From the human T2T-CHM13v2.0 reference genome, Homo sapiens, in NCBI RefSeq assembly GCF_009914755.1, contig NC_060939.1: a stretch of 64,000 bases of DNA; one strand, given 5' to 3'. The translations under genes were made by a program, and so were the position numbers. The notes below the pieces were generated by a model. It saw only the letters and a list, made by a program, of their open reading frames with translations, was not told the origin of the DNA and made no database searches. The stretch's first letter is position 1; the number at the start of each line of letters is the position of its first letter. Positions 13,920 through 44,873 of this stretch are shown here, piece by piece.

Positions 13920-14332
13920 CTAATGTGTAATCTGCAGAGGATATCTGCCTTATCTGACAAACATCATCTCAGCTCAGGAAGCCATGTACAATCCGTCTAT
14001 CAGATCTGACATTGGTGGTATCTACGCAGCCCTTCCCAGCACACACCCTGCCTTTAAAGGTCTTCCCATCCCTGTTATTGGTCTCACAGATGATAGAGTA
14101 TGACACTCCATAAACAATGAGCTAGGCCTTTTGTAGGCTGCTTTGCTTTTCTTGGCTTCAAACTGCCACTGAATGTCAAATCAATTTGGCTCTCATTAGA
14201 ACAGCTTTATATGTGCAAATGTATTTGGGTCTGGTTGCCACTTTTTCCCCTATTTTTTTCTCCTTTCCATTCCTCCTCTTCTCTTTGAGATGATGTAATT
14301 TTTCTCTAATCCATGCCAACACCTGTTTCTTT

Positions 14333-14380
14333 AAAAGAGAGAGAGAGGAGAGAAAAAAGAAGAGAGGAGAGTGAGAGAAA
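14333..14380. repeat. GA-rich low-complexity tract
   Basis: aaaagagagagagaggagagaaaaaagaagagaggagagtgagagaaa. Confidence 0.8.
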
Positions 14381-15127
14381 ATGCTCGAGTGTGTGGCTCT
14401 TTATCACAATCAGCATGAACACCAGTCTGGCACATTATGGCTCAAGTTTCCCCAGAACAAAGAGAAAATGCCTCGTTGCCATGATATTGTACATCACAGA
14501 GCCCAGATAAAGTCGAGAGAGTCTTTGTAAACCTTGGTTCCTGATGTCTGGAGAAACGGCTGTCGAGATAGAGCAAGGTGTGTAAGCTGGTTTTATTGAT
14601 AAGTGATGAAGCTAGCAATAAATCTGGTGCAGTGCTTAAGGAAGTCTGAGCCACAGACCATGTTTGATGGGAGACTGTTTTCCTCTTGAGTTGGGAGAAA
14701 TAAAGCGCTACACCTAAGAGAATAGCACAGACTTAAAGAGGCAGCAGGAAACTCAATAATGAACAGACAGATGAAAAAACAAAGTAGAGTCTGGATGGCC
14801 TTTTTATGTTGATCTCTATATACTTTTCAGTTTATGTGAGAGATTTTCCCCCTGATACATGAACTTTGAGGTTTCTAATTCAAATAAGTCAATTTATTAT
14901 AAAATAAAATGCATATGATATCTAACGGCCTTTTGAAGACGTGTGCAGCTGGATCTTTGACTATTCTTGTTGGATTTTTTCATGCAAAAGAAATATGAAG
15001 TCATGTGGATAGAATCTAAATTCATAAACCAGATAATTATAATTCTTATTATTGTTTTGTGCTCCTCCTCCTGAGAAATTCAGATGTTTGAGAGCACACA
15101 AATATATATGTGTTTACATGTGTAGCT

Positions 15128-15715
15128 ATTCATTTATGGAGTACCTATTATTTACATTGTTTTATATGCTTCAGATATGTTCACGTGCAAAATTTAAAAC
15201 AATTCCTGCCCTTGCGCAACTTACTTCCAGTGCAGGATACAGATAATGAATAGTGAGCCTAAGAGATAATTAAAATATAAAGTATGTTAGAAATTGATAA
15301 ATATTACCAAAAAAAGCCTAACAGGGTAAAGGAGATTAAGAACTCTTGCTTATGTTTGGTTACAATTTTAAATGGGAGGATGAGGGCAGATATCACTGAG
15401 GAGGTGACTTTCAAAGAAAGACTTGAAGGAGAAAAGGGAGTGAGCTATCTGTGTAGTTGGTGAAGAATGCAGCATGTAGGAGGAAGAGTCAATGCAAAGG
15501 CCCTGATGTGGGAGCAAGACTGAAACTCATGGAAGGAAGCGTGGCCAGAGAACCATGAGCCAGGGAGAAAATAGTAGGAGGGACCATCAGAAAAGTAATG
15601 GAGGAGGGCCCAGATACTACAATGCCTTATAGGCCGTTGGAAAGCCAAAGCTTTTTTGCTTTGAAGAAAATGGTGATTTATTGGAAGGTTTTGAGCAGAA
15701 GAATTACATGATGTT
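15128..15715 (-). mobile_element. L2 3' region
   Basis: attcatttatggagtaccta...cctgcccttgcgcaacttac...gaggaggtgacttt...tgcaaaggccctga...ggttttgagcag. Confidence 0.8.
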
Positions 15716-16059
15716 TGTGTCATGCATTTGTTTCTATGAAAGATTGTAATCAGTTTAGGGTTTACAGAATTTTTTAGGAAGTCTGATTTATAGAGTTAGA
15801 TTGGGACACTTTCAGACTTTTTATGAACTTCTGCGAAGGACTGGGAATAAGGATGAAAACCAAACCTGTATCAGAAGAGCTCTTTTAGGATGTCAGAGCC
15901 AAAAACCTTGCTGGGTAAGCTACTAGAGAAGTAACTGAGAGTTTAGAAGTAATGACTTGTTTGTGATCTTAGAAATAGGAGCATACGGCTGGTGTAGACT
16001 CAAGGAAATTAAAGTAAAATTAGTCTGCCTGTGCAATAGACATTGTAGCCAGATAGATT

Positions 16060-16220
16060 TAGGATTATATTCCAGCTATGTCACAATCTGTATAGGGTTA
16101 GGCTAGCTAATTAATATTTCTGAGTCTTTGTTCCCTCATTTTGAAATGGGAATAATGATAACAGTTCCCTTGCACAGTTGTTTTGAGGGTTAAGTTATAT
16201 AGTTCATGTGCGGTTGTCAT
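16060..16220 (+). mobile_element. MIR
   Basis: tttctgagtctttgttccctcattttgaaatgggaataatgataacag...gttgttttgagggttaag. Confidence 0.7.
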
Positions 16221-18807
16221 GAAGTGTATGATAAACACATTGCAATTTTCTTCCTCTGTATCCTCCATAAAGTTCATGCACAACAAATATTTTTAAATTA
16301 TTTGCAAGATATTAATAACCAATTTGAACATGGAGGAGAAAAGTACAATGAAAGAAAAGATACCTAATTAAATCTGGCTCCAATAGTTGCCTAGGCTGAC
16401 GCTGCATAAAGATGAACTTACCTATACATTTCTAGGCATTCCAAACTCTCAAAGTCACAATGCAAATCAAGGATATTAGGGTTCCATAAACAAGGGGGTG
16501 TTCTTTTGGTGTACATCTATCTAGCCAGTTCACAGACTGCTACAGATTCAACTTAGCAAATATTTGTTAAATATGGCTGTGTGGGCCCTGAAGTAGCATA
16601 AAACATTATCCCTGCCTTTCAGAAACTTGGTTTGTTGGAGGAGTTCCCAATCAGATATGATATCTGATTATTTTTCCTCATAAAGTTCCAACTCATTTTT
16701 TTGTATTCTGATTAAAATATTATTGTCTACCCCTTCTAGAAATACTCCTTTTGTTCACTTGATTGGTTGATAGGTAGTCACTGTTTTGTAAACGAACAGT
16801 TATGAAGGGATGGGAATAAGCATTTTTGTTGCTATCTCATTGCACAATTGCAGAATTCATCATTCTCCAAAACATTATTTATTCAAGGCTAGTGTAGTTA
16901 TACTCAAGGGGAGGTGTTTGAATGTTAGGGGAAAGGGTTAAGAGAATTATTCTGTCACTGACAATAAAGAAGAAAACACTTTAAATTCACTATTTTTTTT
17001 TTTTTGGCAGATACAAGCTAAAACCCTTCTAGAATTGCATTAATAAAACTGAAAAGGAAAAATGAAATAAAACTTTTAAGCCCTGAAGAATCTTAAAAAT
17101 AGTCTTTAAAGGATAGAAAAAAAGAACAGAAAAATTCCTTTAAATTCCTGGGTCCTACAAATGAGATTTTAGTAGTGGCAAGTAAAACATATTGATTGGC
17201 ACCAAAGTATAAGATCTTTGTCACCATCTGTTTCCTGATTGTGTCAGCAAGTATTTTTTCCCCACGAGAGTGTGAGAATACACCATAGCCTAAAAGTATC
17301 AAAGTGTCAATTATGCACCACATTTAAAAGTTGGAAGCCCAGTTCATGAAAGTCAGTGACAAAAGTCCTGATTCCTGTTTCTTACTGAAGTGAAATCCTT
17401 GCACTTCATTCGTTTTGTGAACTACAAAAAGAATGGTGGCTCCATGGGTTAGTGGGGCGGGGAGCTGTGGCAAAAGAGGGAGAAAAGTAATCTTAAATGA
17501 ATATTTATCAAAAGTGCCCCCCCCCATGTAAGTCACTTTGCTACAAAATGAAGTTATTATGAATAGTATATGCAAATAACGATTTTAACAAGTATGGGGT
17601 GACAGGGAGGAGAAAGGGAAAAGAAGGGAAAGAGGATACAGAAAAAGAGAAGTAAAAAAAGAAGGAGGATGGATTAACAGGGAAGCATTTGGGAGTCTGG
17701 GCTGGAAAATTGAAAACAGGAGACACTGGTAGGACTGTTGAAACATGAGGCCATGAACAATGGAAGCTGGAAAGGCTGCATTTTCAGAATGAAATCAAGA
17801 TTATTCTCATCCCTCTTCCCTTTTATCTAGCCATTTTTTTTGTTGTTTACATTTAACTTGAGATATCCTTTTTCTATTTTTCTCTCTGTTTTGATCACTG
17901 CTATTGTTAAAGATGGCTAGTGATTAACTACCCTGATTTTCTTTGAGTTCCTGTGCATGTCACTCTGGGTTCTGCTTAGAGAGAAGCACCCTCTTCCTCT
18001 TTAGCTGCACCAATTATTTTTTGATGTGTTGCCTTTCTAGCCGAGTTGGTGGAGCTGCCAGTTTTGACACATTCTCTTGCCTAAGAGTGTTGCAATAATG
18101 TGTTGAGGTCATTCTTGTGCTGTTGGAGGAATGACCTATGCTCAGGCCAGGTAGTCACAGATGCCGTCTGTCTGCTCGAGTTTCATTCTTTTGTAGTAAG
18201 CCTTGGGAAGTTGTTCCTCTGGGTTGACATGAATCCTTTCTTTATTTTGGAAATGAGAGACTCAGGTTCCTATAGCACACTCAGTGTCTAATGTTAAGAG
18301 TCAATATCAAAAATACAAAGACTTGTGTTCTAACCAAGGGTGTATGGATTATAGAGACATACGCCTGGCTAGAACAATAGAAAACTTGTAACAAACAGAA
18401 AAAAAGCATGCCACATTGCCTTCCTTTACTCATCTAGGTTAACCTATTAAGTGGCAGGAAATCCCTACCTGGTGGAAGGACCAGTTCTGCACATCAGGCA
18501 GCCAGGCTCTCAACAAAAACCTTCCAGCCTGGAACTTCACGTGCACCAAGAGAGTAAATAGCCACGTCCTTTGTTCAAGTTTGATTAAATAGAATAGTAG
18601 AGGCTGTCAGGTGAGTCTCTTGGCACATTCTCAAATCACATATAACCATAATTAAAGTTAAATCTGTGTGAGTCTGGAAGCCTGGGACATTGTAGGTTTG
18701 ATCTGAGTTTGAATACACTGTATGAGAGGAGGAGAAAGTAAAGTGTGCTTAGTCTTTTGTCAGAGAAATATCAGATAAAGTGTCAGAACCATTAGAAAAC
18801 ATGACCA

Positions 18808-19060
18808 CTCATTCATTCATATATTCAACATATTTAAATTGAGCACCTACTATTTGGAAGATGCTATAAAATTCACTAAATGCATAGTATTAAATAGGTC
18901 ATTTGAGAACTTACATGTCACTGAGGGAGAGAAATAAGATAGAAATTAATAAAAAACAACATCATATTATAATAATGCTATGAAGGGAAAAAAAGCAGGA
19001 AGCCTTGATAGAGTGAGAAGTAGGGTCAGTGATGTAAAGGGGTAAAGGTAAATATACCTC
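18808..19060 (-). mobile_element. L2 3' end
   Basis: ctcattcattcatatattcaacatatttaaattgagcacctactatt is an antisense L2 terminus. Confidence 0.8.
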
Positions 19061-19666
19061 AACTGATAAACTGAGACATGAAAGATATGATATTTCTATT
19101 ATTTTTTTCCAATATTTTTAATGGTAAGCTATTGCTTTCCCAATACCCTGCATAGATTGGGAATCCATGAACTGACAATACCCTACCTTCCCATTTTAAT
19201 CTTTCACTACTTGTACATATATTGTACTTGGAATGAGCGGAACTACTCATTGTTTCCTACACACACCTTGTGCTTTCCTGACTTAGTGTCTTCACTCATC
19301 CTTTCCTCTGCCTGGAACTTCTTTTGGACTTTCGGATGTTGCATTCCTGCTACACTTTAAGGTCCTGCTCCACTGTCAGCTCCTTTAGTCCTTCTATCCT
19401 GGTCCTCTGAGCTCCTTCTTTGTGCCTCTCACGTTTACAACTTTTTTATTACTCCTATTTTACACATTCTAATACGTGTGTGTGTGTATTTAATTTTCAG
19501 CTCCTATTTCTCTTTGTAATCTAAGAATTCCAAAGATGCAGGGGCATGCATAATGTAAAATTGCTGCTGTCTATAAATATTCTTTGAATAAAAATAAATC
19601 ACATCCAATCAGCAGGAAGCCTGGAAAGTTGAAATCACAAAGAATTTGTGTATGAGACGCAGACAC

Positions 19667-19945
19667 TGTGTTAAATTATTTTGCTCCAAACAAATACTCT
19701 GATAAATTAGACACAAGGAATTTATTTTGAAGGTTACTTCAGGAAGCATTGTGAGGGAGTGAGGAAGTGAGGGATGGAAGGGAAAGCCAGTGAATCATAT
19801 ATTAATGTGTGGGTTTCCTCTGTGGGCAATGGAGGCTCAGTCTTGTCATGGCACCTCTGGGAGACTGTATAAAATATGCTTCAGAATTTTCCCTCTAAAG
19901 GGTAAGGAATCATCCCTCGTTAGTTGGAGATCCCTCTTGGGATGC
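19667..19945 (-). mobile_element. ERVL-class LTR fragment (LTR16-like)
   Basis: tttattttgaaggttacttcaggaagca...ggaagtgagggatggaaggg...ctgtgggcaatggaggctcagtc...ctctgggagactgtat. Subfamily uncertain. Confidence 0.55.
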
Positions 19946-20068
19946 TGAGCAATATGTTTACTCTAATTTTGTCTCTTCGATATTGTTTCTCTTCCATTGC
20001 TATTGTGCTAATTCTCCAACAGGGAGGCTAGGGAGGTGCTACCTGGCAATTTAGGGGTGTACTTTGCC

Positions 20069-21150
20069 ATGAGCAGTGGGGCATTAAGAATAATCTCAAA
20101 GTTGTGCAAAGCCTGGTACTCTCTGGCTTAGCTTTTTTGCTTTATGACAATTCTCTAATAGGGTTATATAGCCTGCCAATGGTAACAGAGCCAGCTTTAA
20201 TACCTAATGGGTAGTTAAGAAAACTACCAAGAGTAAACTCCTGGAGGTAGTTAAATAAACCTTCCTCAACTTCCTCAGAGCTTTTTGAGAAAATGGTTTT
20301 GGGACAGTGCCCATATGAATGCGGAAATACTGCTTGAGGTAGAGGTGAGAGTTAGTATTGATATGCTGGGCCTTTGAGTGGCTCCTTGACATGATGGTTG
20401 TCAAGCCCAAAGCCTTGAAACGAGGCATTCTACAGGCAAAAAAGCTCTCCTCTGATTGAACCCAGTGTCTGTAAAAGAGACTATATTCAGGCCTTTTTTT
20501 GTTCCTGGGAAGGAAGCATTTGAACCTTGAATAGCAAGCCTGGATGAGATGCTTCAAGAGGGGCAAGTGCCCATCACATAATATCTGAGGTGTCCCACAG
20601 AGAGCCTGGGGCCATTGCTTGATCCGGCCTTCCTCAAGGAGGAGTACTTCAAGGTTCTGAAGAGATCACTGGGAGCTTCGAGAGTGGCAAGGCTATCATG
20701 GTGCTGATTACATTTCAATAAGAAAATCTCCAACTGTGAGTGGCAATAAAAGAAATGGTTGCAGATAACCTTAGCAAAGGGGACTGCCTCTAGTTTTAAA
20801 ATATATTGATCATGCCTTGGGTTAGAAAAGTTCTGCCTAACAAAAAGTTGTGGAAGTTCTAGCTGCCTGCAAAGAAGGCAATGTCCCTGAGGTGGTAACT
20901 TTTGATTGAAGAAGATTATAGGAGACTTGTAAAAGACTGAAGACTGAAGACTGAATGTTTTTGGTAAAGCTCACCCCAGGTCAGGCACTTAACCATTAAT
21001 CTAACATCAGAGGGGGAATTACAGATAACATATTCCTCTCATCCCCCACCAGACCCCAAACTGCAGAAGGAGAAAAATTTGTAATTCAGAGACATGACCA
21101 TGTTGTCAAAAAGTACATGAAGTCAGCTGCATAAATTGTGAAACAAGTCA
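20069..21150 (+). pseudogene. Degenerate PNMA-family (Ty3/Gypsy Gag-derived) pseudogene or fossil Gag
   Basis: Manual translation gives collinear blocks matching PNMA1/MOAP1 as recalled: ALRIISKLCKA (~TLRLLEDWCRG), LVLSGL (~LLIAGI), SWR*LNKPSSTSSELFEKM at 20239-20295 (~VWKVLFKPPTSDAEFLERL), PLIEP..L*KRL (~PLVESIWYKRL), PGKEAFEP*IASLDEMLQEGQVPIT*YLRCPTESLGP at 20504-20614 (~[38 protein letters not shown]), GSFES (~GSVES), KISNCEWQ*KKWLQITLAKG at 20723-20782 (~KLSAYVIRLEPLLQKVVEKG). Multiple stops, frameshifts and deletions. Confidence 0.8.
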
Positions 21151-21218
21151 CTGTTTTATTTGTTCTGTGGCAGTGTAAAAATATAATTGCTTCTATCAAG
21201 ATAAGAAATAAAGTCACA

Positions 21219-21530
21219 GGCCAGGTGTGGTGGCTCATGCCTGTAATCCTGGCGCTTTGGGAGGCCAATGCAAGTGGATTGCTTGGGCTCAGGAGTTTGA
21301 GAACAGCCTGGGCAATATGGCAAAACTCCGTCTCTACAAAAAATAGAAAAAATTAGCCAGGCGTGGTGGCATGTGCCTATAGTCCTAGCTATTTTGGGGG
21401 CTGAGGTGGGAGGATCTCTTGAGCACAGGAGGTTGGAGGCTGCAGTGAACCAAAATTGGGACTGCACTCCAGCCTGTGTGACAAAGTGAGACCCTGTCTC
21501 AAAACAGAAACAAAAACAAACAAACAAGAA
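21219..21530 (+). mobile_element. AluJ, full length
   Basis: ggccaggtgtggtggctcatgcctgtaatcc; AluJ-type ggaggatctcttgagcacaggaggttggaggctgcagtg; (CAAA)n tail. Confidence 0.93.
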
Positions 21531-22029
21531 CCCCCCCTACCACCCAACCCCAAAACACAGATAGGCTATAGAATCTTGGTGAAATCAGACTCTACCAATT
21601 ATTAATGACCTAGGGTTAAGAGGAAGAATTGTGACCTGAGATGCCTCCTAAGTTCTATCACCTTCAGAGTTGATACTGGGTGCCTTTCTCTTAACTTTTA
21701 GCTTTCTTTTTACAGTCATGGTCACTCATAGCTACAATCTATGAGAGGATATTTTGGGAGGATTGCTTTTGCCTATTTGCTAAATTGGCCGAGTGGCACT
21801 TATTGTAAAACTCTAATTTACTTCATGCTTTTTTTTTCACAGTTATGGCCTATATACATGTGCCCACACCCTCATTGTGGAGCCATACAGAACCCAGAAG
21901 ATAAGTCCGACATTTAAAAACTTTATCCACAGACCAGCTCTAGTCTTTAACGAGCCTCCTTTATTATTCCAAAGTTTTCAAAATGAAAAAAAGAGATGAA
22001 AACATTATCCAGAGCCCTAACTCCTTTTA

Positions 22030-22302
22030 AAATTTTATTTTTCAAATGATCACACAGTAAAGTTGACTTTTTAGATGTAAAGTTCTATGAATTTTAACAC
22101 ATGAATAGATTTGTGTAATGACCTCCACAATCAGGATTCAGAACAGTTCTATCACCCCTAAAAGCCCCTTGTGCTATCCCTTCATAGTCATAGTCTCCCC
22201 CCAACCCTTGGCAGCCACTGATCTGTTCTTTATCACTGTAGCTTTGTTTTTGTGAAACTATCATATGAATGGGATCATGCAATGTGTTATATTTTGAGAC
22301 TG
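22030..22302 (-). mobile_element. L1MC/MB-like 3' end
   Basis: agttctatgaattttaacacatgaatagatttgtgtaa...cagaacagttctatcacccc...cccttggcagccactgatctgttc. Confidence 0.85.
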
Positions 22303-22339
22303 ATGATCTAGATAAACTAGATAATAAAAGGTAATGATT

Positions 22340-23200
22340 GTGTGGCATAGAAAAGTGGTAGAAACGTTTAATGAGGCCATATCATTGTTGGACTAGGATT
22401 TATCAAGACATGCTTCATGGAAGAGGTCAACTGTGGAGGATGGGTCTCAGAGAAGTCCATAATTTGTATTAATGGCAAAAACAGGGATAATATTTCAGGA
22501 GCAGAGAATGATAATAACATGTAATTAAGGAAATGAGAACAATGTGATTAGAAGAAATGAATCCAGGCATATGTGTTATCTCTTAAAAATGGAGAACAAC
22601 ATGAACAAAGCAGTGGTTTTTGAAGATTAATAGGCAGAGATGTACAAGATTTGTTAACTGCCATATAATATTTGGAAGATAAAGATGGTGATTGCACCCT
22701 CAAGAGTAGATAAATTTTTTGAAGGAGAAAAGACAGAGGGCAGTTAGAGTAGGGTCAAAAACTAAAGCATGAATGACAGCAGGTGGGTAGGAGGGAAAAA
22801 GACCTCTAGAAGATTTAAATAAGGAAGAGAGGAAACAATTGTAGAGGTTAGATAAGAACCAGTTCTTAAAAGGGAGGCAGGAGATCAAAACATTTAATGT
22901 CATCCAGAGTGGAAAAGAATGTGATGCAGAAGAAACAACTGGTAAGTTTGGAGATATTTGATTGCAGTGTAATTATGGGGATAAAGGCCAGATTGCAAAT
23001 GGGTTAAAAGTTATACTGAAGATGAAGGTGAAATCAAAGCAGACTTGGTTGTAAATTGGCTCCAAACATAGAAGGAATTGCAGGATGAAGTGAGTGGGTT
23101 CACAAGCTGACAGATAAACATAAGCATTGAAGGTAGAGATGAGCTGTAGTAACTAAAAACAATGGAAACAAGAAATTTCCCATATGATCCAGAGTTTATG
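22340..23200 (-). mobile_element. Highly diverged L2
   Basis: Purine-rich tract with L2-like motifs (tgcttcatggaagaggtca, gataaaggccagattgc). Boundaries vague. Confidence 0.4.
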
Positions 23201-26093
23201 AGGAGGTACTTTAGTCAAATTAGCCTTTGTGCATATTCTATCTGGTCAGGATCAAGAGTTAAATAAACTTCCAATAGTTTCTATCTGTATTTCTCGTCAC
23301 CACAAAAAGCTGTCCTATTATAATTGTTCTCTATTACTTAAGTTTTTCAGTTGTCACAAAATAGACTCTAACCTACCACAAGCTGTTATTGACTTAAAAA
23401 AAGATTCCACTAATTCTACTAATTCTTAGAGACTAAATTAATGTTGTAGTAAACGGATAGCAACTATTTACAAATGTAAATGCTTTAAAGTTTATAAAGT
23501 ACTTTCATAAACATTTTAATTTCACCTACTAGTAATATTTACAGTGATAGTAGAAACTATGGTGTAGCAGTATGGGAAGATTTTTCTCAACCTCATTACA
23601 AAGACACCACATTTCTCTCCTGGAACTCAACCATGTCAATCACACAGTAGTATCCCAAAGCATTTGCCTCCAATTTTCTTGAATCGAAGAATCTCTCATA
23701 GTTGTTAGTATCTAGCAAGCTGAAATTTTAAACAAGTCTTTGCTTGCAACCAAAATTGATTTCTGTAATTCTCTCCAGCATGGCTTTTCTGACAAGGCTA
23801 TTTCTAGATTACCCAGTGTTTGGGCTCAGCTTGTGTTGCTTATGCAACTTTAATTCTTGCCTCTAAGCTGCAACCTGGTCCCTCTGCCAATCACTGCTGG
23901 AAGCATCCTCCCATGTTATGGACCTTTTCATCAAATGGGCTCTACCAATCACTACTATCGACCCTCTACTCCTCATAAAATAAAAACAGAGACTTCGAGG
24001 GCTTCTTGACATTTTGCTCTGGTTCCCTGAAGACCCATCCAGGACACCTCCATGGATCTGCTTTACTCTGTAAGGATGATCTATTTCACAAAGACCCTAC
24101 CATAACTGAAAGTAATCTTAAAAATAAACCTTGCAGGACAGGCTGGGGCATATTGATTACCTCTCCTCTACATTCTTGTCCTGGATAGAAGCCAGCCAGA
24201 CTCCTGTGAATTCTGGATACTTATAACTTTCTATTAAAGAAGGATGGTGGTATTGTACAGCTGGCACCTGGAGTCCAACCAGAATTTAAAACTGTTAATC
24301 CCTGAGACTGTTCAGATGCCACTATGTCTCAGGCTGAAGGGCATGTAAATTTATTTGCAAGGGGCAAGGGTTTTGCAAAACTCTATAAATTTGTATTGTA
24401 TTCTACCTGGAATTCATATCCTTTCCATTTTAGTTTATGTTCTTAAATTTATTGAACAATCAAAATGTGGCAGAGTTAATAATTAGGAGCTATGTTAGCC
24501 AATTCTTCATAGTTGATTATTGTCTGCATTCCAAAAATCCCAAGGTGTATGATAAGTGTCACTAGGCTCTGTTTTTATTTCAGTAGAGAGGTAATGAGAA
24601 ATAGGAAATGAGCTGCCTTTGCCTGATAGGAGATGCAAGCTTCCTAGAATATGGATGTGTCTATAGAGAAAGTGAAACAAGGACTTGTTTAAATTGGGCT
24701 CTTGGTCAGACTTACATGAGGATGCAGAAATCAGTCACCTATGTGGTACAATTTGCAAGTTACCTCTGCTTTCAATTTATTTCCTGAAACATGTCACAGA
24801 GCCTGGATTTCCCAGTGAAAGTAATATATTTGAATTAAATATTACCTTCTTCTATCAGGTTCTCTTGTGAGCGGTATCACTGTAAGTTATTAGCATATGA
24901 GTAAACATCAGCTAACAGATTTATCTTTTGCCATGTTAAGAGTGATCTTGAGTATGTGATAGCATTGGGTTTGAGGGAATGGCACACAGACAAAGGGAAA
25001 GTTGTGCTCATTCAGAGAGGAGGTAAGTAGGAGTCAAACAAGTCAACAGCTTGAAAAAATATGCTTTTGGTTGCTTTTGCTACGCTTATGGTGATTCTGT
25101 GTTAAAATATCATTGACCCTCTTTACAGGTAGGCAAGTGAAGTGCTGTGAGGGATGTTTCAGTGAGGCATTGTAAAGGGAACAACACCCCCCTATATAAG
25201 GACAGGAAAGGGAGAACAGAACTTCAAGATTGTTAGCACTTTTTTGCTTTTTGTAAAGGATAAAAAAAAGAATTATACAATTTATTATCATGGTGACAGA
25301 ACCTACATTTATTACACAGTAATAACTTATTATTTCTTAAAAAGTGAAATAACTACTGGGAAAGTATCTAATATTTCAAGAAATGAGGAAAGCTGTCATC
25401 ATAAAAACCTACTTAAACTAGGTCACCATTTTTTGGCAGCAAAGAGGTTGGTAGAGAATAATGTCAAGAGAAAAACTGTATACTCTATACTGAAATCTGA
25501 AGGGACTGTTAAGCAGGGAATAGCTACAGGGCTTTAATGCTCAAACTGAATTGAAGAATAAAGAATCATGCATGGATGCCAAGGAAAAAGGTCAAGTGAG
25601 GCAGGAGAAAATGAAGGATTTACCAAAAGGCCAAGAGTATCTCTGAGAACTAAGAGGGAACAGGCATTTAAAAAATGAATTAGACCAGATGTCAGTGAAA
25701 AATAAAATAGTAATGGTACAGGAAGAGATTTGTTCTAGCAACATAGGTAGGAATATAAGGCAAGAAAAGGTGAAAGGTTGGGGAAGTTGAATTCAAGGCT
25801 GCTCACCAAAGGACCCCAAAAGAGATGGTTAACTATTGCAAAACCATCTGCTGGTATGAAATTGCTAATAACAGAGAGGAAGAGGGGAGACAGCTAAGTA
25901 ATTTACTGTTGACGTATAGATATCAAGTGAATTAATCTTTTCAATGAAAATTAGCCAAAAATAAAAGAAAAGGTACATGATCCAGGATTGATATAGAGAG
26001 TGGGGTAAATTAATTTGAGTGGGATCTGGATACCAAAGGTAGAGGGAGTAGAGTCAGATGTGAATGTGGGTGACCAAAAGGAGCTTGGTTTCA

Positions 26094-26609
<516 letters not shown>

Positions 26610-26668
26610 TTAGGTAATACTCATATGCTCTCAAAATCTACCCAGCATCCTTAAGAAGAGATGTGTAT

Positions 26669-29600
26669 AATCATCTGATTCTCCAAGGTCAAAATGAAAG
26701 AAAAAACTGTTAAAGGCAGCTAGATAGAAAGGACAGGTCACCTGCAAAGGGAAGCCCATCAGACTTACAGCAGATGTCTCAGCAGAAAGCTAGAAGAGAT
26801 TGGGGGCCAATATTAACCATTCTTAAAGAAAAGAAATTCCAACCAAGATTTCATATCTGGCCAAACTAAGCTTCATTAGTGAAGGAGAAATAAAATCCTT
26901 TTAAGACAAGCAAATGCTGAGGGGATTTGTTACCTGGAGACTTGCCTTACAAGAGTTCCTGAAGGAAGCACTAAATATGCAAAGGAAAGATAAATACCAG
27001 CCACTACAAAAACAACTTTAAATACACTGACCAGTGACACTATAAAGCAACCACACAAACAAATCTGCATAATAACCAGCTAACATGGATCAAATCTACA
27101 CCTATCAGTATGAAACTTGAATGTAAATAGGCTAAATTCCCCAATTAAAAGGCACAAAGTGGCAAGCTGCTTAAAGAACCAGGATAGATTGGTATGCTGT
27201 CTTCAAGAGACTCATCTCACTGCAGTGACAATGACACCCATAAGCTCAAAATAAAGGGATCGAGGCAAACCTACCAAGCAAATGGAAAACAGACAAAAAG
27301 CCGACAATATATTCCTAATTTCAGACAAAACAGACTTTAAGCTAACAAAGATAAAAAAACAAAACAAAACAAAGAAGGGCATTACATAATGGTAAAGGGT
27401 TCAATTCAACAAGAAGACCTAACTATTCTAAATATATACACACCCAACACAGGAGCACCCAGATTCATAAAGCAAGTTCTTAGAAACTTTCAGAGACTTA
27501 GACTCTCACACAATGATGGTGGGAGACTTCAAAACTCCACTGACAGTATTAGACAGATCATCAAGGCAGAAAGTTAACAAAGATATTCAAGACCCGAACT
27601 CATCACTGGATCAAATGGACCTGATAGTCATCTACAGAACTCTCCACCCCAAAACAACAGAATATACATTCTTCTCATTGCCACATGTCACATACTCTAA
27701 AATCAACCACATTATTGGGCACAAAACACTCCTATGCAAATGCAAAATAGATGAAATCATAATAATCACTCTCTTGGACTACAGTAGAATAAAATTAGAG
27801 GTCAAGACTAAGAAAATCACTTAAAACTATACAATTACATGGAAATTGAATAATTTGCTTCTGAATGACTTTTGGGTAAGTAATGAAATTAAGGCAGAAA
27901 TCAAGAAGTTTTGTGAAACTAGTGAGAATAAAGATACAACATACCAGAATATCTGGGACACAGCTAGGGCAGTATTAAGAGGGAAACAGACAGCACTAAA
28001 TGTCCACATCAAAAAATTAGAAAGATCTCAATGTAACAACCTAGCATCACAACTAAAAAACTAGAGAATCAAAACAAACAAACACCAAAGCTAGCAGAAG
28101 ACAACAAATAACCAAAATCAGAGCTGAGCTGAAGGAGATTGAGACATGAAAAACATTCAAAAGATCAACAAATCCAGGAGTTGGTTTTTTGAAAAAAATT
28201 ATTAAATAGATCACTAGTTAGACTAATAAAGAAAAAAAGAGAAGATCCAAATAAACACAATTGTAATTACAAAAGGGATATTATCACTGATTCCACAAAA
28301 CTACAAATAATCATCAGAGAATGTTATGAACACCTTTATGGATACAAACTAGAAAACCCAGAAGAAGTGGATAAAATCCTGGACAAATACACTCTCCCAA
28401 GACTGAACCAGGAGGAAATTGAATCCCTGAACAGACTAAAAATAAGCTCTGAAATTGAATCAGTAATAAACAGCCTACCGACCACTAAAAGCCCAGAACC
28501 AGATGGATTAATAACCCAGTTCTACCAGACGTACAAAAAAGAGCTGGTACAATTCCTACTGAAACTATTCCAAAAAAATTGAGGAGGTGGACTCATCCCT
28601 AACTCATTCTATGAGGTCAGCATCATCCGGATACCAAAACCTGGCAGAGACACAACAAAAAAAGAAAACTTCAGGCCAACATCTTTGATGAACTTCGATA
28701 CAAAAATTCTCAACAAAATACTGGCAAACCGAATCCAATAGTACATCACAAAGCTTATCCACCATAATCAAGTAGGCTTTGTTCCTAGGATGCAAGGTTA
28801 GTTCAACACATGCAAATCAATAAATGCAATTCATCACATAACAGAAATAAAGACAAAAAACACATGATTATCTCAATAGATGCAGAAAAGACCTTTAATA
28901 AAATTCAACATCCCTTCATGTTAAAAATTCTCAATAAACTAGGTATTGAAGAAACATACCTCAAAATAATAAAAGCCATCTATGACAAACCCACAGCCAA
29001 CATCATACTGAATGGGCAAAAGCAGGAAGTATTTCCCTTGAAAACTGGCACAAGACAAAGATGCCCTCTCTCACCACTCCTATTCAACATAACATTGGAA
29101 GTCCCACCAGAGTGACAAGGCAACAGAAAAAAATAAAGGTATGAAAAATAGGAAGAGAAGAAATCAAACTACCCTATTTGCAGATGAGATAATCCTATAT
29201 CTAAAAGGCCCATAGTCTAGGCCCAAAAGCTCTTTAAGCTGATAAACAACTTCCGTAAAATCTCACTGTACATAATCAATGTTCAAAATTCACTAGCATT
29301 CCTATAGACCAACAATTGTTAAGCTGAGAGCCAAATCAGGTATACAATTTTATTCACAATAGCCAGAAAAAGAATAAAATACCTAGAATACAGCTAACCA
29401 GGGAGATGAAAGATATTTACAACAAGAATTGTAAAATGCCACTCAAAGAAATCAGAGATGACACAAACAAATGGAAAAACATTCCATGCTCATAGATAGG
29501 AAGAATCAATATTGTTAAAATGGCCATACTGCCCAAAGCAATTTATAGATTCAGTACTATTCCTATCAAATTACCAATGACATTCCTCACAGAATTAGAA

Positions 29601-31101
29601 AAAACTATTTTAAAATTCATGTGCAACCAAAAGAGAGCCCAAATAGCCAAGACAATCCTAAGCAAAAAGAACAAAGCTGGAGGCATCACGCTACCTACTT
29701 CCAACTATACTAACAGCATGGTACTGGTACAAAAATAGACATATAGATCAATGGAAGAGAATAGACAGCCCAGAAATGAAGCTATACACCTACAACCATC
29801 TGATCTTCAACCAAGATGACAAAAATAAGTAATGGAGAAAGGACTCCTTATTCAATAAATGGTGCTGGGATAACTGGCTAGCAGTATGCAGAAGACTGAA
29901 ACTGGACTCCTTCCTTATAACATACACAAAAATCAACTCAAGATAGATTAAAGACTTAAATGTAAACTCCAAAACTATAAAAACCCTGGAAGACAACATA
30001 GGCAACAGCATTCTGAAGATAGGAGTGGGCAAAGATTTGATGATGAAGACACCAAAAGCAATTGCATCAACAACAAAAATGGATGAATGGGACCTAATTA
30101 AATTAAAGAGCATCTGCACAGCACAAGAAGCAGAGTAAACAGACAACCTACAGAATGGGATAAAATATTTGCAAACCATGCCTCTGACAAAGATCTGCTA
30201 TCTAGCATCTATAAGGAACTTAAACAAAGTTACAAGAGAAAAAAAAACCCATTAAAAAGTGGGCAAAGGACATGAACAGGCACTTTTCAAAAGAAGACAT
30301 ACATGCAGCCAAAAAGCATATGAGAAAAAGCTCAACATTATTGTCATTAGAGAAATGCAAATCAAAACCACAATGAGATACCATCTCACACCAGTCAGAA
30401 TGGCTACTATTAAAAGGTCAAAAAATGGCAGGTGCTGGAGAGGTTGTGAGGAAAAATTAACACTTATACACTGTAGGTGGGAGTATACATTAGTTAAATT
30501 ATTGTGAAAAACAGTGTGGTGATTCTTCAAAGACCTAAAGACAGAAATACCATTTGACCCAGCATTCCTATTACTGGGCATATACCCAAAGGAATATAAA
30601 TCATTTTATCATAAAGACACATACACACATATGGTCATTGCAGCACTATTCACAATAGCAAAGACATGGAATCAACCTAAGTGCCCATCAATGGTAGACT
30701 GAATAAAAAAAAATGTGGTATAGATACACCATGGAATACTATGCAGCCATAAAATAGAACAAGATCATGTCCTTTGCAGGAAAATGGATGAAGCTGGAGG
30801 CCATTATCCTGAGCAAACTAACACAGGAACAGAAAACTAAATACCACATTTTCTTGCTTATAAGTGGGAGCTAAATCATTAGAATACATGGATACATAGA
30901 GGAGAACAACATACACTGGGGCCTATTAGATGGTGGAGCGTGGGAGGATAGAGAGGATCAGGTAAAATAACTAATGAGTACTAGGCTTAATACCTGGGTG
31001 ATGAAATAATCTGAACAACAAACCCCCAAGACAAAAGTTTACCTATACAACGAACTTTCACATGTACTCCTCAATTTAAAATAAAAGTTAAAAAAAGAAG
31101 A
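26669..31101 (+). mobile_element. L1PA (about PA13-like), 5'-truncated in ORF1, disrupted ORF2
   Basis: ORF track fragments of EN (GDFKTPL), RT ([29 protein letters not shown]) and the C-terminus; 3' UTR; TSD aagaaga(g/a)atgtgtat at 26653-26668 and 31102-31117. Confidence 0.97.
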
Positions 31102-31223
31102 AAGAAGAAATGTGTATTCGTGGATGTGATTTGATAGTGTAATTTACATAGAATAGTATTAACCATTTTCTTATTTTGATATGACTATTGAAAGTATGCA
31201 TATTCTTTACTATGTCTCTAGAT

Positions 31224-31447
31224 CAGTGATTTTCAAACTTCTTGGCCCTGACCTATAGTAAAAAATAATTTTATATTGCATCTCTATACATATACACACA
31301 TAATAAAAACAAAATTTCCATAAATATCTGCCTTTAATACTTGAATTATTCTATTCTATTCTTTTTCTAAAAAACACAGTCTGTTACCCACTAACTTGAT
31401 GTCATGGCTCACCAACTGGGTGGTATCATACTATTTGAAAACCACTG
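31224..31447. mobile_element. Non-autonomous hAT-Charlie DNA transposon
   Basis: TIRs cagtgattttcaaa ... tttgaaaaccactg. Confidence 0.7.
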
Positions 31448-31962
31448 CTCTGCCTTATGGATAGGACATTGACTAAACGAATTTAGTCCTGTCAGTCATT
31501 CATTTGTTACTCCAATACATTTGGCCATATTCTTCAAATTATTGAAAATAATTGTTAGTGTTTTTTTTCTTGAATAAAAAATAAGTAGCTTCATGAGACT
31601 CAATGTCATCATCCTTGATCACAAATATGTAAGCTAAATCTCTCAACTCCCAGTAAAGTACTTACCTACTTTGGGAATTAATTGAACATAAAGTAGAATA
31701 ATGTTGCCAGGGATAAACTTTGCAACCAAGTGCTTTTCAAATCACTTTTAAGAGTCTCAGATTGAAATATTTAAACAGAGGACCATATTTAAATGCACCA
31801 AGAAAAAATATATAAAGGAAACCATTACTGAATATGCTTATGAATTGAACAACTACTTCAATGATTCAATTTTTGTGTGTTTATTCAGTTTTTAAAAAAC
31901 AAGCTTTCTAAACAGAAACAAAAAAACATCTACATGCATCCAATTATATATGCCCATTTCCT

Positions 31963-33735
31963 CTCCAATAAAAGGCACAGAGTGGCAAGTTGGATAAAGC
32001 TGCAAGACCCAACTGTATGCTGCCCTCAAGACACACATCTCACATGCAATGACACCGATAGTCTCAAAGTAAAGGGATGGAGAAAAATCTACCAAGGAAA
32101 TGGAAAAGAGAAAAATGCAGGGGTTGCTATTCTAATTTCAGACAAAACAGGCTTTAAACCAACAGTGATCAAAAAAGACAAAGATGGACATTACATAATG
32201 TTAAAGAGTTCAAGTCAACAAGAATATCTAACTATTATATATATGTATGTGTGTGTGTATGTATACACAACACAGGAGTACCCAAATCCATAAAACAAGT
32301 TCTTAGAGACATTAAAAGAGACTTAGATAACCACATATTAATAATGAGAGACTTCAACACCTTATTAATAATATTAGTCAAATCATTGAGGCAGAAAACT
32401 GAAAACTGAAAAGATATTTGGGACCTGAACTCTTGACCAAATGGACGTAACAGACATATATGCAACTCTCCACTAAAAAACAACAAAATACACATTTTCT
32501 GCTATGCACATGACACACACTCAAATCCACCACCCAACTGGCCACAGAATAATTCTAAGCAAATTCAAAAAATGAAAATCATACCAACCACACTCTCAGA
32601 CCACAGAACAATAAAAATGAAATCAATACTAAGAAAATCACTCAAAACCATAAAATTACGTGGAAATTAAGCAACCTGAGTGACTTTTGTGTAAACAATA
32701 AAAGTAAGGCAGAAATCAATAAATTCTTTGAAGCTAATGATAACAAAGATACAATGTATCAGAATCTCTGGGACACAGCTAAAGCAGTTTTAGAAGGGAA
32801 GTTTATAGAGCTAAACGCCCACATCAAAAAGTTAGAAATATTCAAATTAACAACCTAACATCACACCTTGAGGAACTAGAACAAGAACAAACCAATCCCA
32901 AAGCCAGTAGAAGACAAGAAATACCAAAACAAGAGTTGAACTGAAGGAAATTGAGAGGTGAAAAGCCATACAAAAGATAAACAAATCTAGGAGTTGGTGT
33001 TTTGAAAGAATAGGTAAGATAGACCACTAGCTTGACTAATTATAAAAAGAGAGAAAAAAAATAAAAACAGGTAGTGGTGGGCTTGCTGGGAAATGGAATG
33101 CTTACACACTGCTGGTAGTTCAGCCATTGTGGAAAGCAGTCAGGCAATTTCTCAAAGAATTTATAACAAAATTACTATTTGACCCAACAATCCCATTATT
33201 GAGCATATATCCAAAGGAATATAAGTCATTCTACCACGAAGACACATGCATGCATATGTTCAATGCAGCACTACTCACAATAGCAAAGACATGGAATCAA
33301 CCTAAATGCCCATCAATGGTAGACTTGATAAAGAAAACGGGGTACATATACATAATGGAATACTACACAGTCATAAAAAAACAAGATTATGTTCTTTGCA
33401 GCAACATGGTTGGAGCTGGAGGCCATTATCCTATGTGAACTAAATACAGGAACAAAAAATGAAATACTGAATGTTCTCGCTTACAAGTGGGAGCTAAACA
33501 TTGAATACACGTGAACACAAAGAAGGGAACAGACACCGGGCCTACTTGAGGACAGAAAGTAGGAGAAGGATGAGAACTGAAAAACTACCTATTAGGTACT
33601 ATGCTTATTACCTGGGTGACAAAATAATCTGTATGCCAAACCCCCATATCATGCAATTTACCTATATAATAAACCTGCTCATGTACCCCGAACCTAAAAT
33701 AAAAGTTTAAAAAATTAAATACAATTAAAAAAGAA
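31963..33735 (+). mobile_element. L1PA15/16-like element with a large internal deletion
   Basis: EN-domain ORF (KRHRVASWIK..DTHLTC..KGWRKIYQ..AGVAILISDK), a jump near 33060 to the ORF2 C-terminus, then the 3' UTR (gaaaaactacctattaggtactatgcttattacctgggtgac). Confidence 0.93.
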
Positions 33736-42933: not shown

Positions 42934-42974
42934 CCGCCTGCCTTGGCCTCCCAAAGTGCCGAGATTGCAGCCTC

Positions 42975-44330
42975 TGCCCGGCCGCCACCCCGTCTGGGAA
43001 GTGAGGAGTGTCTCTGCCTGGCCGCCCATCGTCTGGGATGTGAGGAGCCCCTCTGCCTGGCTGCCCAGTCTGGAAAGTGAGGAGCGTCTCCCCCCGGCCG
43101 CCATCCCATCTAGGAAGTGAGGAGCGCCTCTTCCCAGCCACCATCACATCTAGGAAGTGAGGAGCGTCTCTGCCCGGCCGCCCATCATCTGAGATGTGGG
43201 GAGCGCCTCTGCCCCGCCGCCCCATCTGGGATGTGAGGAGCGCCTCTGCCCGGCCGAGGCCCCGTCTGGGAGGTGAGGAGCGTCTCTGCCCGGCCGCCCC
43301 GTCTGAGAAGTGAGGAGACCCTCTGCCTGGCAACCACCCCGTCTGAGAAGTGAGGAGCCCCTCCGCCCGGCAGCTGCCCCGTCTGAGAAGTGAGGAGCCT
43401 CTCCGCCCGGCAGCCACCCCATCTGGGAAGTGAGGAGCGTCTCCGCCCGGCAGCCACCCCGTCCGGGAGGGAGGTGGGGGGGGGTCAGCCCCCCGCCCGG
43501 CCAGCCGCCCCATCCGGGAGGGAGGTGGGGGGTCAGCCCCCCCGCCCGGCCAGCCGTGCCATCCGGGAGGGAGGTGGGGGGGTCAGCCCCCCGCCCGGCC
43601 AGCCGCCCCGTCTGGGAGGTGAGGGGCGCCTCTGCCCGGCCGCCCCTACTGGGAAGTGAGGAGCCCCTCAGCCCGGCCAGCCACCCCGTCCGGGAGGGAG
43701 ATGGGGGGGTCAGCCCCCCCACCCGGCCAGCCACCCCGTCCGGGAGGGAGGTGAGGGGGTCAGCCCCCCGCCCGGCCAGCTGCCCTGTCCGGGAGGGAGG
43801 TGGGGGGGTCAGCCCTCCGCCCGGCCAGCCGCCCCGTCTGGGAGGTGAGGGGCGCCTCTGCCCGGCCGCCCCTACTGGGAAGTGAGGAGCCCCTCTGCCC
43901 GGCCAGCCGCTACGTCTGGGAGGGAGGTGGGGGGGTCGGCCCCCCGCCCGGCCAGCCGCCCCGTCCGGGAGGGAGGTGGGGGGGTCGGCCCCCCGCCCGG
44001 CCAGCCGCCCCGTCCGGGAGGGAGGTGAGGGGGGGTCAGCCCCCCTGCCCGGCCAGCCGCCCCGTCCGGGAGGTGAGGGGCGCCTCTGCCCGGCTGCCCC
44101 TACTGGGAAGTGAGGAGCCCCTCTGCCCGGCCAGCCGCCCCGTCCGGGAGGGAGGTGGGGGGGTCAGCCCCCCGCCCGGCCAGCCACCCCATCTGGGAGG
44201 GAGGTGGGGGGGGGGTCAGCCCCCCTGCCCGGCCAGCCGCCCCGTCCGGGAGGTGAGGGGCGCCTCTGCCCGGCCGCCCCTACTGGGAAGTGAGGAGCCC
44301 CTCTGCCCGGCCACCACCCCGTCTGGGAGG
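42975..44330 (+). repeat. SVA VNTR
   Basis: Tandem units of about 35-50 bp, such as ccgtctgggaagtgaggagcgtctctgcccggccgcc and ccgtccgggagggaggtgggggggtcagccccccgcccggccagccgc. Confidence 0.95.

Positions 44331-44837: not shown

Positions 44838-44873
<36 letters not shown>

What the first reader, a model, noticed from the sequence alone, without database searches (positions are those of the whole stretch)
20069..20935. Hidden, near full-length PNMA-like (Gypsy Gag capsid) fossil gene missed by the ORF track
Seen in sequence: + strand translation across frameshifts gives at least seven collinear blocks with PNMA-family spacing, from the N-terminal ALRIISKLCKA/LVLSGL, through W..L.KP.....E..EK, to the capsid core PGKEAFEP*IASLDEMLQEGQVPIT*YLRCPTESLGP, PAF...E..K.L, GSFES and KIS.........LQ.....KG. 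The lesions at conserved residues are single-base changes: W TGG>TGA at 20528-30, W TGG>GGG at 20561-63, E GAA>TAA at 20579-81, Y>TAA at 20472-74. Established knowledge: PNMA1/2/3 and MOAP1 are domesticated Ty3/Gypsy gag genes, and some PNMA proteins assemble capsids. Inference: this is a dead PNMA paralogue that may be intact in other mammals, or a relic of the ancestral retrotransposon. It looks too diverged to be a recent retrocopy of PNMA1. The comparison uses recalled protein sequences, and I cannot tell whether the locus is already catalogued.
Basis: partly seen in the sequence, partly recalled or inferred. Interest (0 to 1): 0.9.

Follow-up and report, generated by a model that had tools for sequence, protein, structure and literature searches.

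The report
Decayed PNMA-like Gypsy gag relic

Summary
My frameshift-aware alignment to the 353-aa chr14 PNMA ORF (L004, PNMA1 by size and place, name recalled) gives one chain. It runs over window 20059-20718 and residues 28-255, with 70/207 identities, 7 stops and 5 frameshifts. It scores 116; the best of 300 shuffles scored 69. The capsid block and the N-terminal block each pass on their own.

Against this, Pfam finds nothing at E<=10, a genome-wide PF14893 scan misses the locus, and DNA identity to the PNMA1-like CDS is about 48%. Nothing beyond about 20794 is supported, so the relic is not near full length.

At least 11 other dispersed relics in this genome score alike. No pol, LTRs or open frame were detected.

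Best reading: an inert, very old gag relic of the MamGyp-type Gypsy family from which the PNMA genes derive. An equally old dead copy of a PNMA1-like gene is not excluded. It is absent from the two PNMA catalogues I read. I could not check RepeatMasker. Ordinary; low interest.

The parts
20059..20301 (+). Remnant of the PNMA-type N-terminal (matrix-like) domain, aligned to L004 residues 28-107. It holds 2 in-frame stops and a private 4-codon insertion after the conserved IP.
   Evidence: Banded frameshift-aware alignment scores 51 for 20125-20301; 0/200 shuffles and 0/222 natural segments reached it. BLASTP 25.8 bits, E 0.002. The chain alignment extends to 20059.
20302..20503 (+). Linker stretch bridged only by the relaxed chain alignment (L004 residues 108-171) through several frameshifts. 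It includes *KRLYSG at 20472-20492, which resembles YKRL..FSG by eye.
   Evidence: Relaxed alignment. It has no significance on its own. The TAA at 20472-74 was read.
20504..20646 (+). Capsid N-terminal-domain core, L004 residues 172-233: PGKEAFEP*IASLDEMLQEGQVPIT*YLRCPTESL-GP. The stops TGA at 20528-30 and TAA at 20579-81 lie at W180 and E197. GGG at 20561-63 lies at W191. R207 is missing and residues 212-220 are deleted.
   Evidence: tblastn E 0.004 in the 64 kb window; this is the best L004 hit in the window, and every stronger HSP is of L009/L010 in the low-complexity repeat at 43-44 kb. Alignment. BLASTP E 4e-6. hhalign against 6 paralogues E 1.6e-4, probability 50%.
20647..20718 (+). Continuation after a frameshift, EEITGSFESGK--AIMVLITFQ, aligned to L004 residues 234-255 (EQVFGSVESSRDAQIKFLNTYQ).
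   Evidence: It is part of the score-79 alignment. BLASTP instead stays in frame, so the exact path here is ambiguous.
20720..20794 (+). Weak last block, KKISNCEWQ*KKWLQITLAKG, aligned to L004 residues about 259-279.
   Evidence: It appears only as the in-frame tail of the BLASTP and hhalign alignments. It is not significant alone.
20795..20935 (+). No detectable PNMA similarity.
   Evidence: C-terminal banded tests with 7 paralogues over 20719-21212 were all within the null.

Best explanation
Window 20059 to about 20794 (+) is an inert molecular fossil of a PNMA-type gag sequence. The likely history is as follows.

- Inferred: a copy or fragment of an ancient mammalian Ty3/Gypsy LTR retrotransposon of the MamGyp type inserted here by reverse transcription in an early mammalian ancestor. 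The PNMA genes were domesticated from the gag of this family.
- Inferred: it was never, or not for long, under selection.
- Shown: it has drifted almost to mutational equilibrium. It keeps recognisable remnants of the N-terminal domain and the capsid N-terminal domain only, with 7 stops, 5 frameshifts and private indels.
- Shown: no pol, LTR or open frame was detected.
- Inferred: it has no present function. By the hub's gene table it lies in an intron of the lncRNA DPH6-DT.
For: Homology is real:
- Chain alignment to L004 scores 116 over residues 28-255 with 70/207 identities. 0 of 300 shuffles reached it (max 69, Gumbel P about 5e-8).
- The core block scores 79, against 0/96 natural segments and 0/1000 shuffles.
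- The collinear N-terminal block scores 51, against 0/200 shuffles and 0/222 natural segments.
- Four paralogues exceed every natural null segment at the same place (L005 56 vs 49, L006 57 vs 46, L003 48 vs 42).
- BLASTP E 4e-6 and 0.002. hhalign E 1.6e-4.
- 300 shuffled L004 proteins against the real DNA reached at most 55.

It is one of a dispersed population:
- PF14893 finds decayed loci on many chromosomes.
- Under the same alignment, 11 of the 17 loci tested score 95-357, against a natural 3.3 kb null maximum of 72 (n=30). Examples are L016 118, L023 128, L024 129, L027 119 and L019 139; the candidate scores 116.
- L004 is the best or joint-best of 8 paralogues for 9 of these 15 other loci as well. 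So the candidate's preference for L004 need not mean descent from that gene.

Great age: 48% nucleotide identity, with third positions at the null level.

Literature:
- The PNMA2 ORF is the Gag-derived part of a MamGyp-int element (10.1101/2023.02.09.527862, passage).
- MamGyp-int and its LTRs are listed as human Gypsy traces (PMC5753468, passages).
Against: - No Pfam family at E<=10 for any of the six frames or for the two best pieces.
- The genome-wide PF14893 scan gave 36 matches, none at this locus.
- My own HMM of 10 PNMA ORFs ranks the locus first of 258 translated chunks, but at E 4.3.
- phmmer against PDB chains found only a chance Pax-8 hit at E 0.67.
- A reverse search of the genome with the 84-aa core finds only itself, plus two weak unrelated places.
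- blastn and tblastx against PNMA loci and the other relics give nothing better than E 0.026, and that hit is to L033, one of the two weak places and neither a PNMA locus nor a relic.
- Identities are not significantly enriched at family-conserved columns (27/69 against 43/138, one-sided P 0.16; shuffles show the same trend).
- Against a retrotransposon origin specifically:
  - No pol domain in 15001-29001; only L1 ORF1/RT was found.
  - No match to an RTL1-like pol in 19001-27000 or downstream of 8 other relics.
  - No pol downstream of 2 near-full-length relics.
  - No LTR-like direct repeats.
  - No indels shared with other relics.
Confidence: 0.55

Rival explanations
1. It is a dead copy (a retrocopy or segmental duplicate) of an early PNMA1-like host gene, made after domestication and pseudogenised very early. 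It would then be an uncatalogued PNMA-family pseudogene, not a transposon relic.
For: - L004 (PNMA1-like) is the best paralogue in both independent blocks: 79 against 56/57/48/41, and 51 against 46/33/39/29.
- Identity at columns where the other paralogues differ from L004 is 31%, about the same as at conserved columns.
- No pol or LTRs were found.
- Kokosar and Kordis argue for a single exaptation followed by duplications (PMC3670739, passages).
Against: - L004 is best or joint-best for 9 of the 15 other loci tested as well. This suggests it is simply the most conservative paralogue.
- Shuffle alignments show the same 32% identity at variable columns, so that figure is partly an artefact of optimisation.
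- Synonymous positions are saturated, so no closer link to PNMA1 can be shown.
- A population of at least 11 similar dispersed loci fits a mobile source better.
Confidence: 0.33
2. It is a chance resemblance in unconstrained intronic DNA, picked out by a reader looking for PNMA motifs.
For: - No Pfam hit.
- Own HMM E 4.3.
- The reverse search finds only itself.
- No enrichment at conserved columns.
- Third-position identity is at the null level.
- The single-HSP tblastn E of 0.004 holds for a 64 kb search space only. Scaled to the genome it would not be significant (my arithmetic).
Against: - Two blocks in different frames, at the collinear spacing, each pass empirical nulls.
- The chain score of 116 compares with a shuffle maximum of 69.
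- My product of the two Gumbel tail probabilities (about 5e-7 and 1e-4), times about 5 million 1.25 kb strand segments in the genome, is well below 1. This is an extrapolated estimate.
- The three lesions at W180, W191 and E197 are each one base away from the family-invariant residue.
Confidence: 0.04
3. The relic has been exapted, for instance as a regulatory element or as part of the DPH6-DT transcript, or it survives as an intact gene in some mammals.
For: None from my calls. It only lies inside the DPH6-DT span (hub gene table).
Against: - No exon of DPH6-DT lies in the window (hub table).
- Decay is near equilibrium, with 7 stops and 5 frameshifts in 207 codons.
- Iwasaki's human PNMA list has no chr15 entry (PMC3789554, Table 1). 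The main text of Henriques' T2T scan mentions none (PMC11011659).
Confidence: 0.05

Closest known systems
PNMA1 (chr14 ORF of 353 aa, locus L004; name assigned by me from length and chromosome, recalled) and its paralogues MOAP1/PNMA4, PNMA2, PNMA3 and PNMA5
   Same: The order of N-terminal domain, linker and capsid N-terminal domain is collinear. The family motifs are recognisable: PG.E.F..W, E.L..WQV, ESL(R)GP, FGS.ES and T(Y/F)Q. Identity to L004 is 34% over 207 codons.
   Different: - There is no open frame (7 stops, 5 frameshifts).
- The capsid C-terminal half is undetectable.
- It falls below the Pfam PNMA threshold.
- It has private deletions of residues 212-220 and of R207, and a 4-codon insertion.
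- It is on chr15, where the PNMA list I read has no member (PMC3789554, Table 1).
MamGyp-int, the Repbase/Dfam internal sequence of an ancient mammalian Gypsy LTR retrotransposon
   Same: The PNMA2 ORF is described as the Gag-derived portion of a MamGyp-int element. A PNMA-like gag relic is therefore what a MamGyp-int gag fragment should look like. The family is listed among human Gypsy traces.
   Different: I had no Dfam or Repbase sequence, so no direct comparison was made. I found no pol, no LTRs and no shared indels with other relics.
Other dispersed PNMA-like relics in the same genome (loci L014, L016, L017, L019, L022-L024, L027, L028)
   Same: The kind of decay and the alignment scores are alike (95-339 against 116). 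W180 has become a stop in L016, L017 and L019 as well.
   Different: They lie on other chromosomes. Pairwise DNA or tblastx similarity to the candidate is not significant. All of them but L028 reached the Pfam cut-off for PF14893 (L022 and L023 by only 24 and 23.7 bits, L028 20.4 bits, E 0.04-0.55; cut-off 25), and the candidate did not appear at all.

Membership tests
PNMA family (Pfam PF14893, capsid-derived domain) | A match to the family profile at or above the curated cut-off (25 bits) | tested here: not met
   There were 0 families at E<=10 for all six frames of 20001-21200 and for the two best pieces. The genome-wide PF14893 scan gave 36 matches, none at C15:33.438 Mb.
PNMA family (Pfam PF14893, capsid-derived domain) | Collinear sequence similarity to PNMA proteins beyond chance | tested here: met
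   See (empirical nulls; BLASTP E 4e-6 and 0.002; hhalign E 1.6e-4, probability 50%).
PNMA family (as domesticated host genes) | An intact ORF kept under purifying selection at a conserved syntenic position in placental mammals | tested here: not met
   There is no open frame: 7 stops and 5 frameshifts on the path. Synteny and dN/dS could not be tested because no other mammalian genome is held.
Ty3/Gypsy LTR retrotransposon (MamGyp-int) | Similarity to the MamGyp-int consensus or Dfam model | not testable with these tools
   No Dfam, Repbase or RepeatMasker is available. The only link is indirect, through the literature.
Ty3/Gypsy LTR retrotransposon (MamGyp-int) | A pol (protease, RT, RNase H, integrase) downstream of gag | tested here: not met
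   Pfam on six frames of 15001-29001 found only L1 ORF1 and RT domains at about 26.7-29 kb. tblastn with an RTL1-like ORF found nothing. At this level of decay, absence is weak evidence.
Ty3/Gypsy LTR retrotransposon (MamGyp-int) | Flanking LTRs as direct repeats | tested here: inconclusive
   Sensitive blastn of 14001-20100 against 20700-32000 on the same strand gave 3 short matches, the best at E 0.029 over 60 bp. LTRs of this age would probably be unrecognisable.
Ty3/Gypsy LTR retrotransposon (MamGyp-int) | Multiple dispersed copies in the genome | tested here: met
   Eleven of the 17 other loci tested score 95-357, against a natural null maximum of 72. They lie on chromosomes X, 7, 17, 11, 6, 3, 21 and 2.

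The most novel reading that the evidence does not exclude
The locus is a previously unlisted member of the PNMA gene family. It would have been a working gene in early placental mammals and may still be open in some lineage. That would add an autosomal branch to the family and bear on the question of single against multiple domestication.
Probability: 0.04. Interest if true: 0.55.

Novelty: new member of a known kind. Interest (0 to 1): 0.2.

Why it matters
Taken alone it matters little: it is one more dead gag relic in an intron.

It has modest value as a data point on how the PNMA family arose. Two models are in print. One has a single exaptation followed by duplications (PMC3670739). The other has several retrotranspositions of a Gypsy12_DR-like element (PMC3789554). 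Relics like this one, scattered over many chromosomes, are the raw material for telling these apart, once they are placed on a rooted tree and dated by cross-species presence.

It also shows that ORF-based and Pfam-threshold scans miss the most decayed copies. This includes the genome-wide PF14893 scan, and by design the ORF-based T2T scan described in PMC11011659, section 5.

Tried and rejected
- Pfam hmmscan of all six frames and of the short pieces gave nothing.
- phmmer against PDB chains gave only a chance Pax-8 hit.
- A DNA search of the genome with 20000-21000 found only itself, so this is not a young repeat.
- A reverse protein search with the 84-aa core found only itself.
- blastn and tblastx of the candidate against the PNMA loci and relics showed mostly the Alu at 21213-21533, and nothing significant in 19501-21200.
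- A genome scan with PF17919, meant to find Gypsy-type pol near the relics, was swamped (2250 candidates, 150 scored) and was of no use.
- tblastn with an RTL1-like pol and Pfam scans downstream of other relics found no pol.
- An LTR search found nothing.
- A test for enrichment at conserved columns was not significant.
- A third-codon-position identity test was at the null level.
- A search for indels shared with other relics found none.
- I considered that the two minus-strand open frames of 153 and 138 aa marked a gene on the other strand. I rejected this: there were no Pfam hits, and 14 stop-to-stop frames of 130 aa or more occur in the window.
- I considered a CCHC-like string in frame 3 near 21125-21160. 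I dropped it: its spacing is off by one (read by eye), and no C-terminal alignment supports it.
- A search of the Henriques supplement for the longest open piece of the relic gave 0 occurrences. That file is held cut, so this does not prove absence.

Full report
**What is in the sequence.** The window is human T2T chr15:33418001-33482000. The frames hold 23-26 stops each, so nothing is open.

**First tests were negative.**
- Pfam hmmscan of all six frames gave no family at E<=10.
- phmmer of frame 3 against PDB chains gave only a chance Pax-8 match at E 0.67.
- A genome-wide scan with PF14893 (PNMA, 161 positions) gave 36 matches, none on this part of chr15.

That scan did supply intact PNMA-family ORFs from the same genome (loci L002-L012) and a series of decayed loci (L013-L031). 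I used both as comparison material. From length and chromosome I take L004 (353 aa, chr14) to be PNMA1, L005 (351 aa, chr14) to be MOAP1 and L006 (364 aa, chr8) to be PNMA2. These names are recalled, not given by a tool.

**Direct comparison.** tblastn of the 11 ORFs against the whole window returned 2200 HSPs at E<=1000.
- L004's best hit in the window is residues 172-244 on 20504-20692 (+), at 33% identity and E 0.004. Every stronger HSP is of L009 or L010 in the low-complexity repeat at 43-44 kb.
- A second HSP lies at the collinear spacing: residues 52-107 on 20125-20301, E 0.57.
- L002, L003, L005, L006, L007 and L008 hit 20501/20504 at the equivalent residues.

**Frameshift-aware alignment.** I wrote a frameshift-aware local aligner (BLOSUM62; gap 10/1; frameshift 12).
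- L004 scores 79 over 20504-20718 (residues 172-255, one frameshift).
  - None of 96 other 1.25 kb strand segments of the window exceeded 48.
  - None of 1000 dinucleotide shuffles exceeded 54 (Gumbel P about 5e-7).
  - None of 300 shuffled L004 proteins exceeded 55 against the real DNA.
- L005, L006 and L003 also beat every natural null segment (56 vs 49, 57 vs 46, 48 vs 42).

**The N-terminal block as a separate test.** I searched only a band of +/-15 codons around the diagonal set by the core.
- L004 scores 51: 0/200 shuffles and 0/222 natural segments reached it.
- L005 scores 46: 0/200 and 0/222.
- L003 scores 39: 1/200 and 1/222.
- L006 scores 33: 4/200 and 3/222.
- L002 scores 29: 14/200 and 20/222.
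- In a run of 1000 shuffles the largest score was 56, so at least one reached 51. The Gumbel fit gives about 1e-4.

**Single chain and tool checks.**
- With milder penalties (8/1/8), one chain covers 20059-20718 and L004 residues 28-255. It has 70/207 identities, 7 stops and 5 frameshifts, and scores 116. The shuffle mean was 40.8 and the maximum 69 (n=300).
- The BLASTP tool gives 33.9 bits, E 4e-6, for L004 against frame 3.
- BLASTP gives 25.8 bits, E 0.002, against frame 2.
- hhalign of six paralogues against 20495-20794 gives E 1.6e-4 and probability 50%.
- TGA, GGG and TAA fall on W180, W191 and E197, columns invariant in the six paralogues.

I conclude that the homology is real, with about 0.9 confidence overall.

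**Limits and results against.**
- The C-terminal part (L004 residues 256 onward against 20719-21212) shows nothing with any of 7 paralogues.
- Pfam still finds nothing in the two best pieces.
- My own HMM of 10 ORFs ranks the locus first of 258 translated chunks, but at E 4.3.
- A reverse genome search with the 84-aa core finds only itself.
- DNA identity to the L004 CDS is 48%. Third positions are at 34%, against 31% in shuffle alignments.
- Identities are not enriched at conserved columns (27/69 against 43/138, P 0.16).

**What kind of thing it is.** The same aligner run on the other decayed loci gives scores of 95-357 for 11 of the 17 tested. The natural 3.3 kb null has a maximum of 72 (n=30). 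The candidate's 116 sits in the middle of this range.
- L004 is the best or joint-best of 8 paralogues for 9 of the 15 other loci tested. The candidate's preference for L004 is therefore not special.
- Several relics also have a stop at W180. No indel of the candidate is shared with them.
- Around the candidate I found no pol domain; only an L1 was found at about 26.7-29 kb.
- There was no match to an RTL1-like pol and no LTR-like direct repeats.
- Two near-full-length relics elsewhere also lack pol downstream.

**Literature.**
- Passages of PMC5753468 list MamGyp-int and its LTRs among human Gypsy traces.
- Table 1 of PMC3789554 (section 12 read) lists 19 human PNMA candidates on chr14, 8, X and 19, and none on chr15. 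Its tblastn cut-off was 1e-9.
- Section 5 of PMC11011659 reports an ORF-based HMM scan of T2T that found 24 intact metaviral capsid genes and two pseudogenes. Its main text does not contain 'chr15' or 'chromosome 15'.
- The longest open piece of the relic is not in the part of that paper's supplement that is held.
- A search for PNMA together with DPH6 gave one unrelated paper.

**Verdict.** This is an inert, very old PNMA-type gag relic. I favour a MamGyp-type retrotransposon origin (0.55) over an early dead copy of a PNMA1-like gene (0.33). Chance stands at about 0.04. I could not run RepeatMasker or Dfam, so it is open whether the interval already carries a MamGyp-int label. It is a new member of a known kind at most, and of low interest.

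Noticed in passing
window 21213-21533: An Alu-like insertion just downstream of the relic. It matches Alu-like copies in many of the fetched loci at 70-75% identity and is masked in the hub's list. The family name is recalled.
   Followed up: partly
window about 26690-28985 (+): An L1 element. Pfam finds Transposase_22 and Tnp_22_dsRBD (ORF1) at about 26.7-27.0 kb and RVT_1 at about 28.6-29.0 kb.
   Followed up: no
window 42970-44330, with poly-A at 44845-44871: A GC-rich tandem array of 37-49 bp units (higher-order periods 156-226) followed by a 27-base A run. It looks like the VNTR and tail of an SVA element; that identification is from memory. It causes spurious low-complexity tblastn hits with the repeat-rich PNMA6E/F-like ORFs L009 and L010.
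   Followed up: partly
window 20207-20665 (-) and 20557-20970 (-): Two stop-free frames of 153 and 138 aa run antisense to the relic. There are no Pfam hits. Fourteen frames of 130 aa or more occur in the window, so this is not unusual.
   Followed up: yes
L014/L018/L035 (G000:C23:107.84 Mb): The best-preserved dispersed PNMA-like relic outside the known genes. It covers L004 residues 1-337 at 39% identity, with 6 stops and 17 frameshifts. It lies next to guanylate-cyclase exons.
   Followed up: partly
L015/L029/L042 (G000:C23:52.98 Mb): A PNMA-like stretch covering L004 residues 202-350 at 40% identity with only 1 stop. The Pfam matches there have no internal stops. It may be a partly preserved capsid C-terminal fragment.
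   Followed up: no
L016, L017, L019 and window 20528-30: The invariant tryptophan W180 has become a stop independently in the candidate and in three of the 12 other relics aligned. It is a recurrent one-step decay of TGG.
   Followed up: partly
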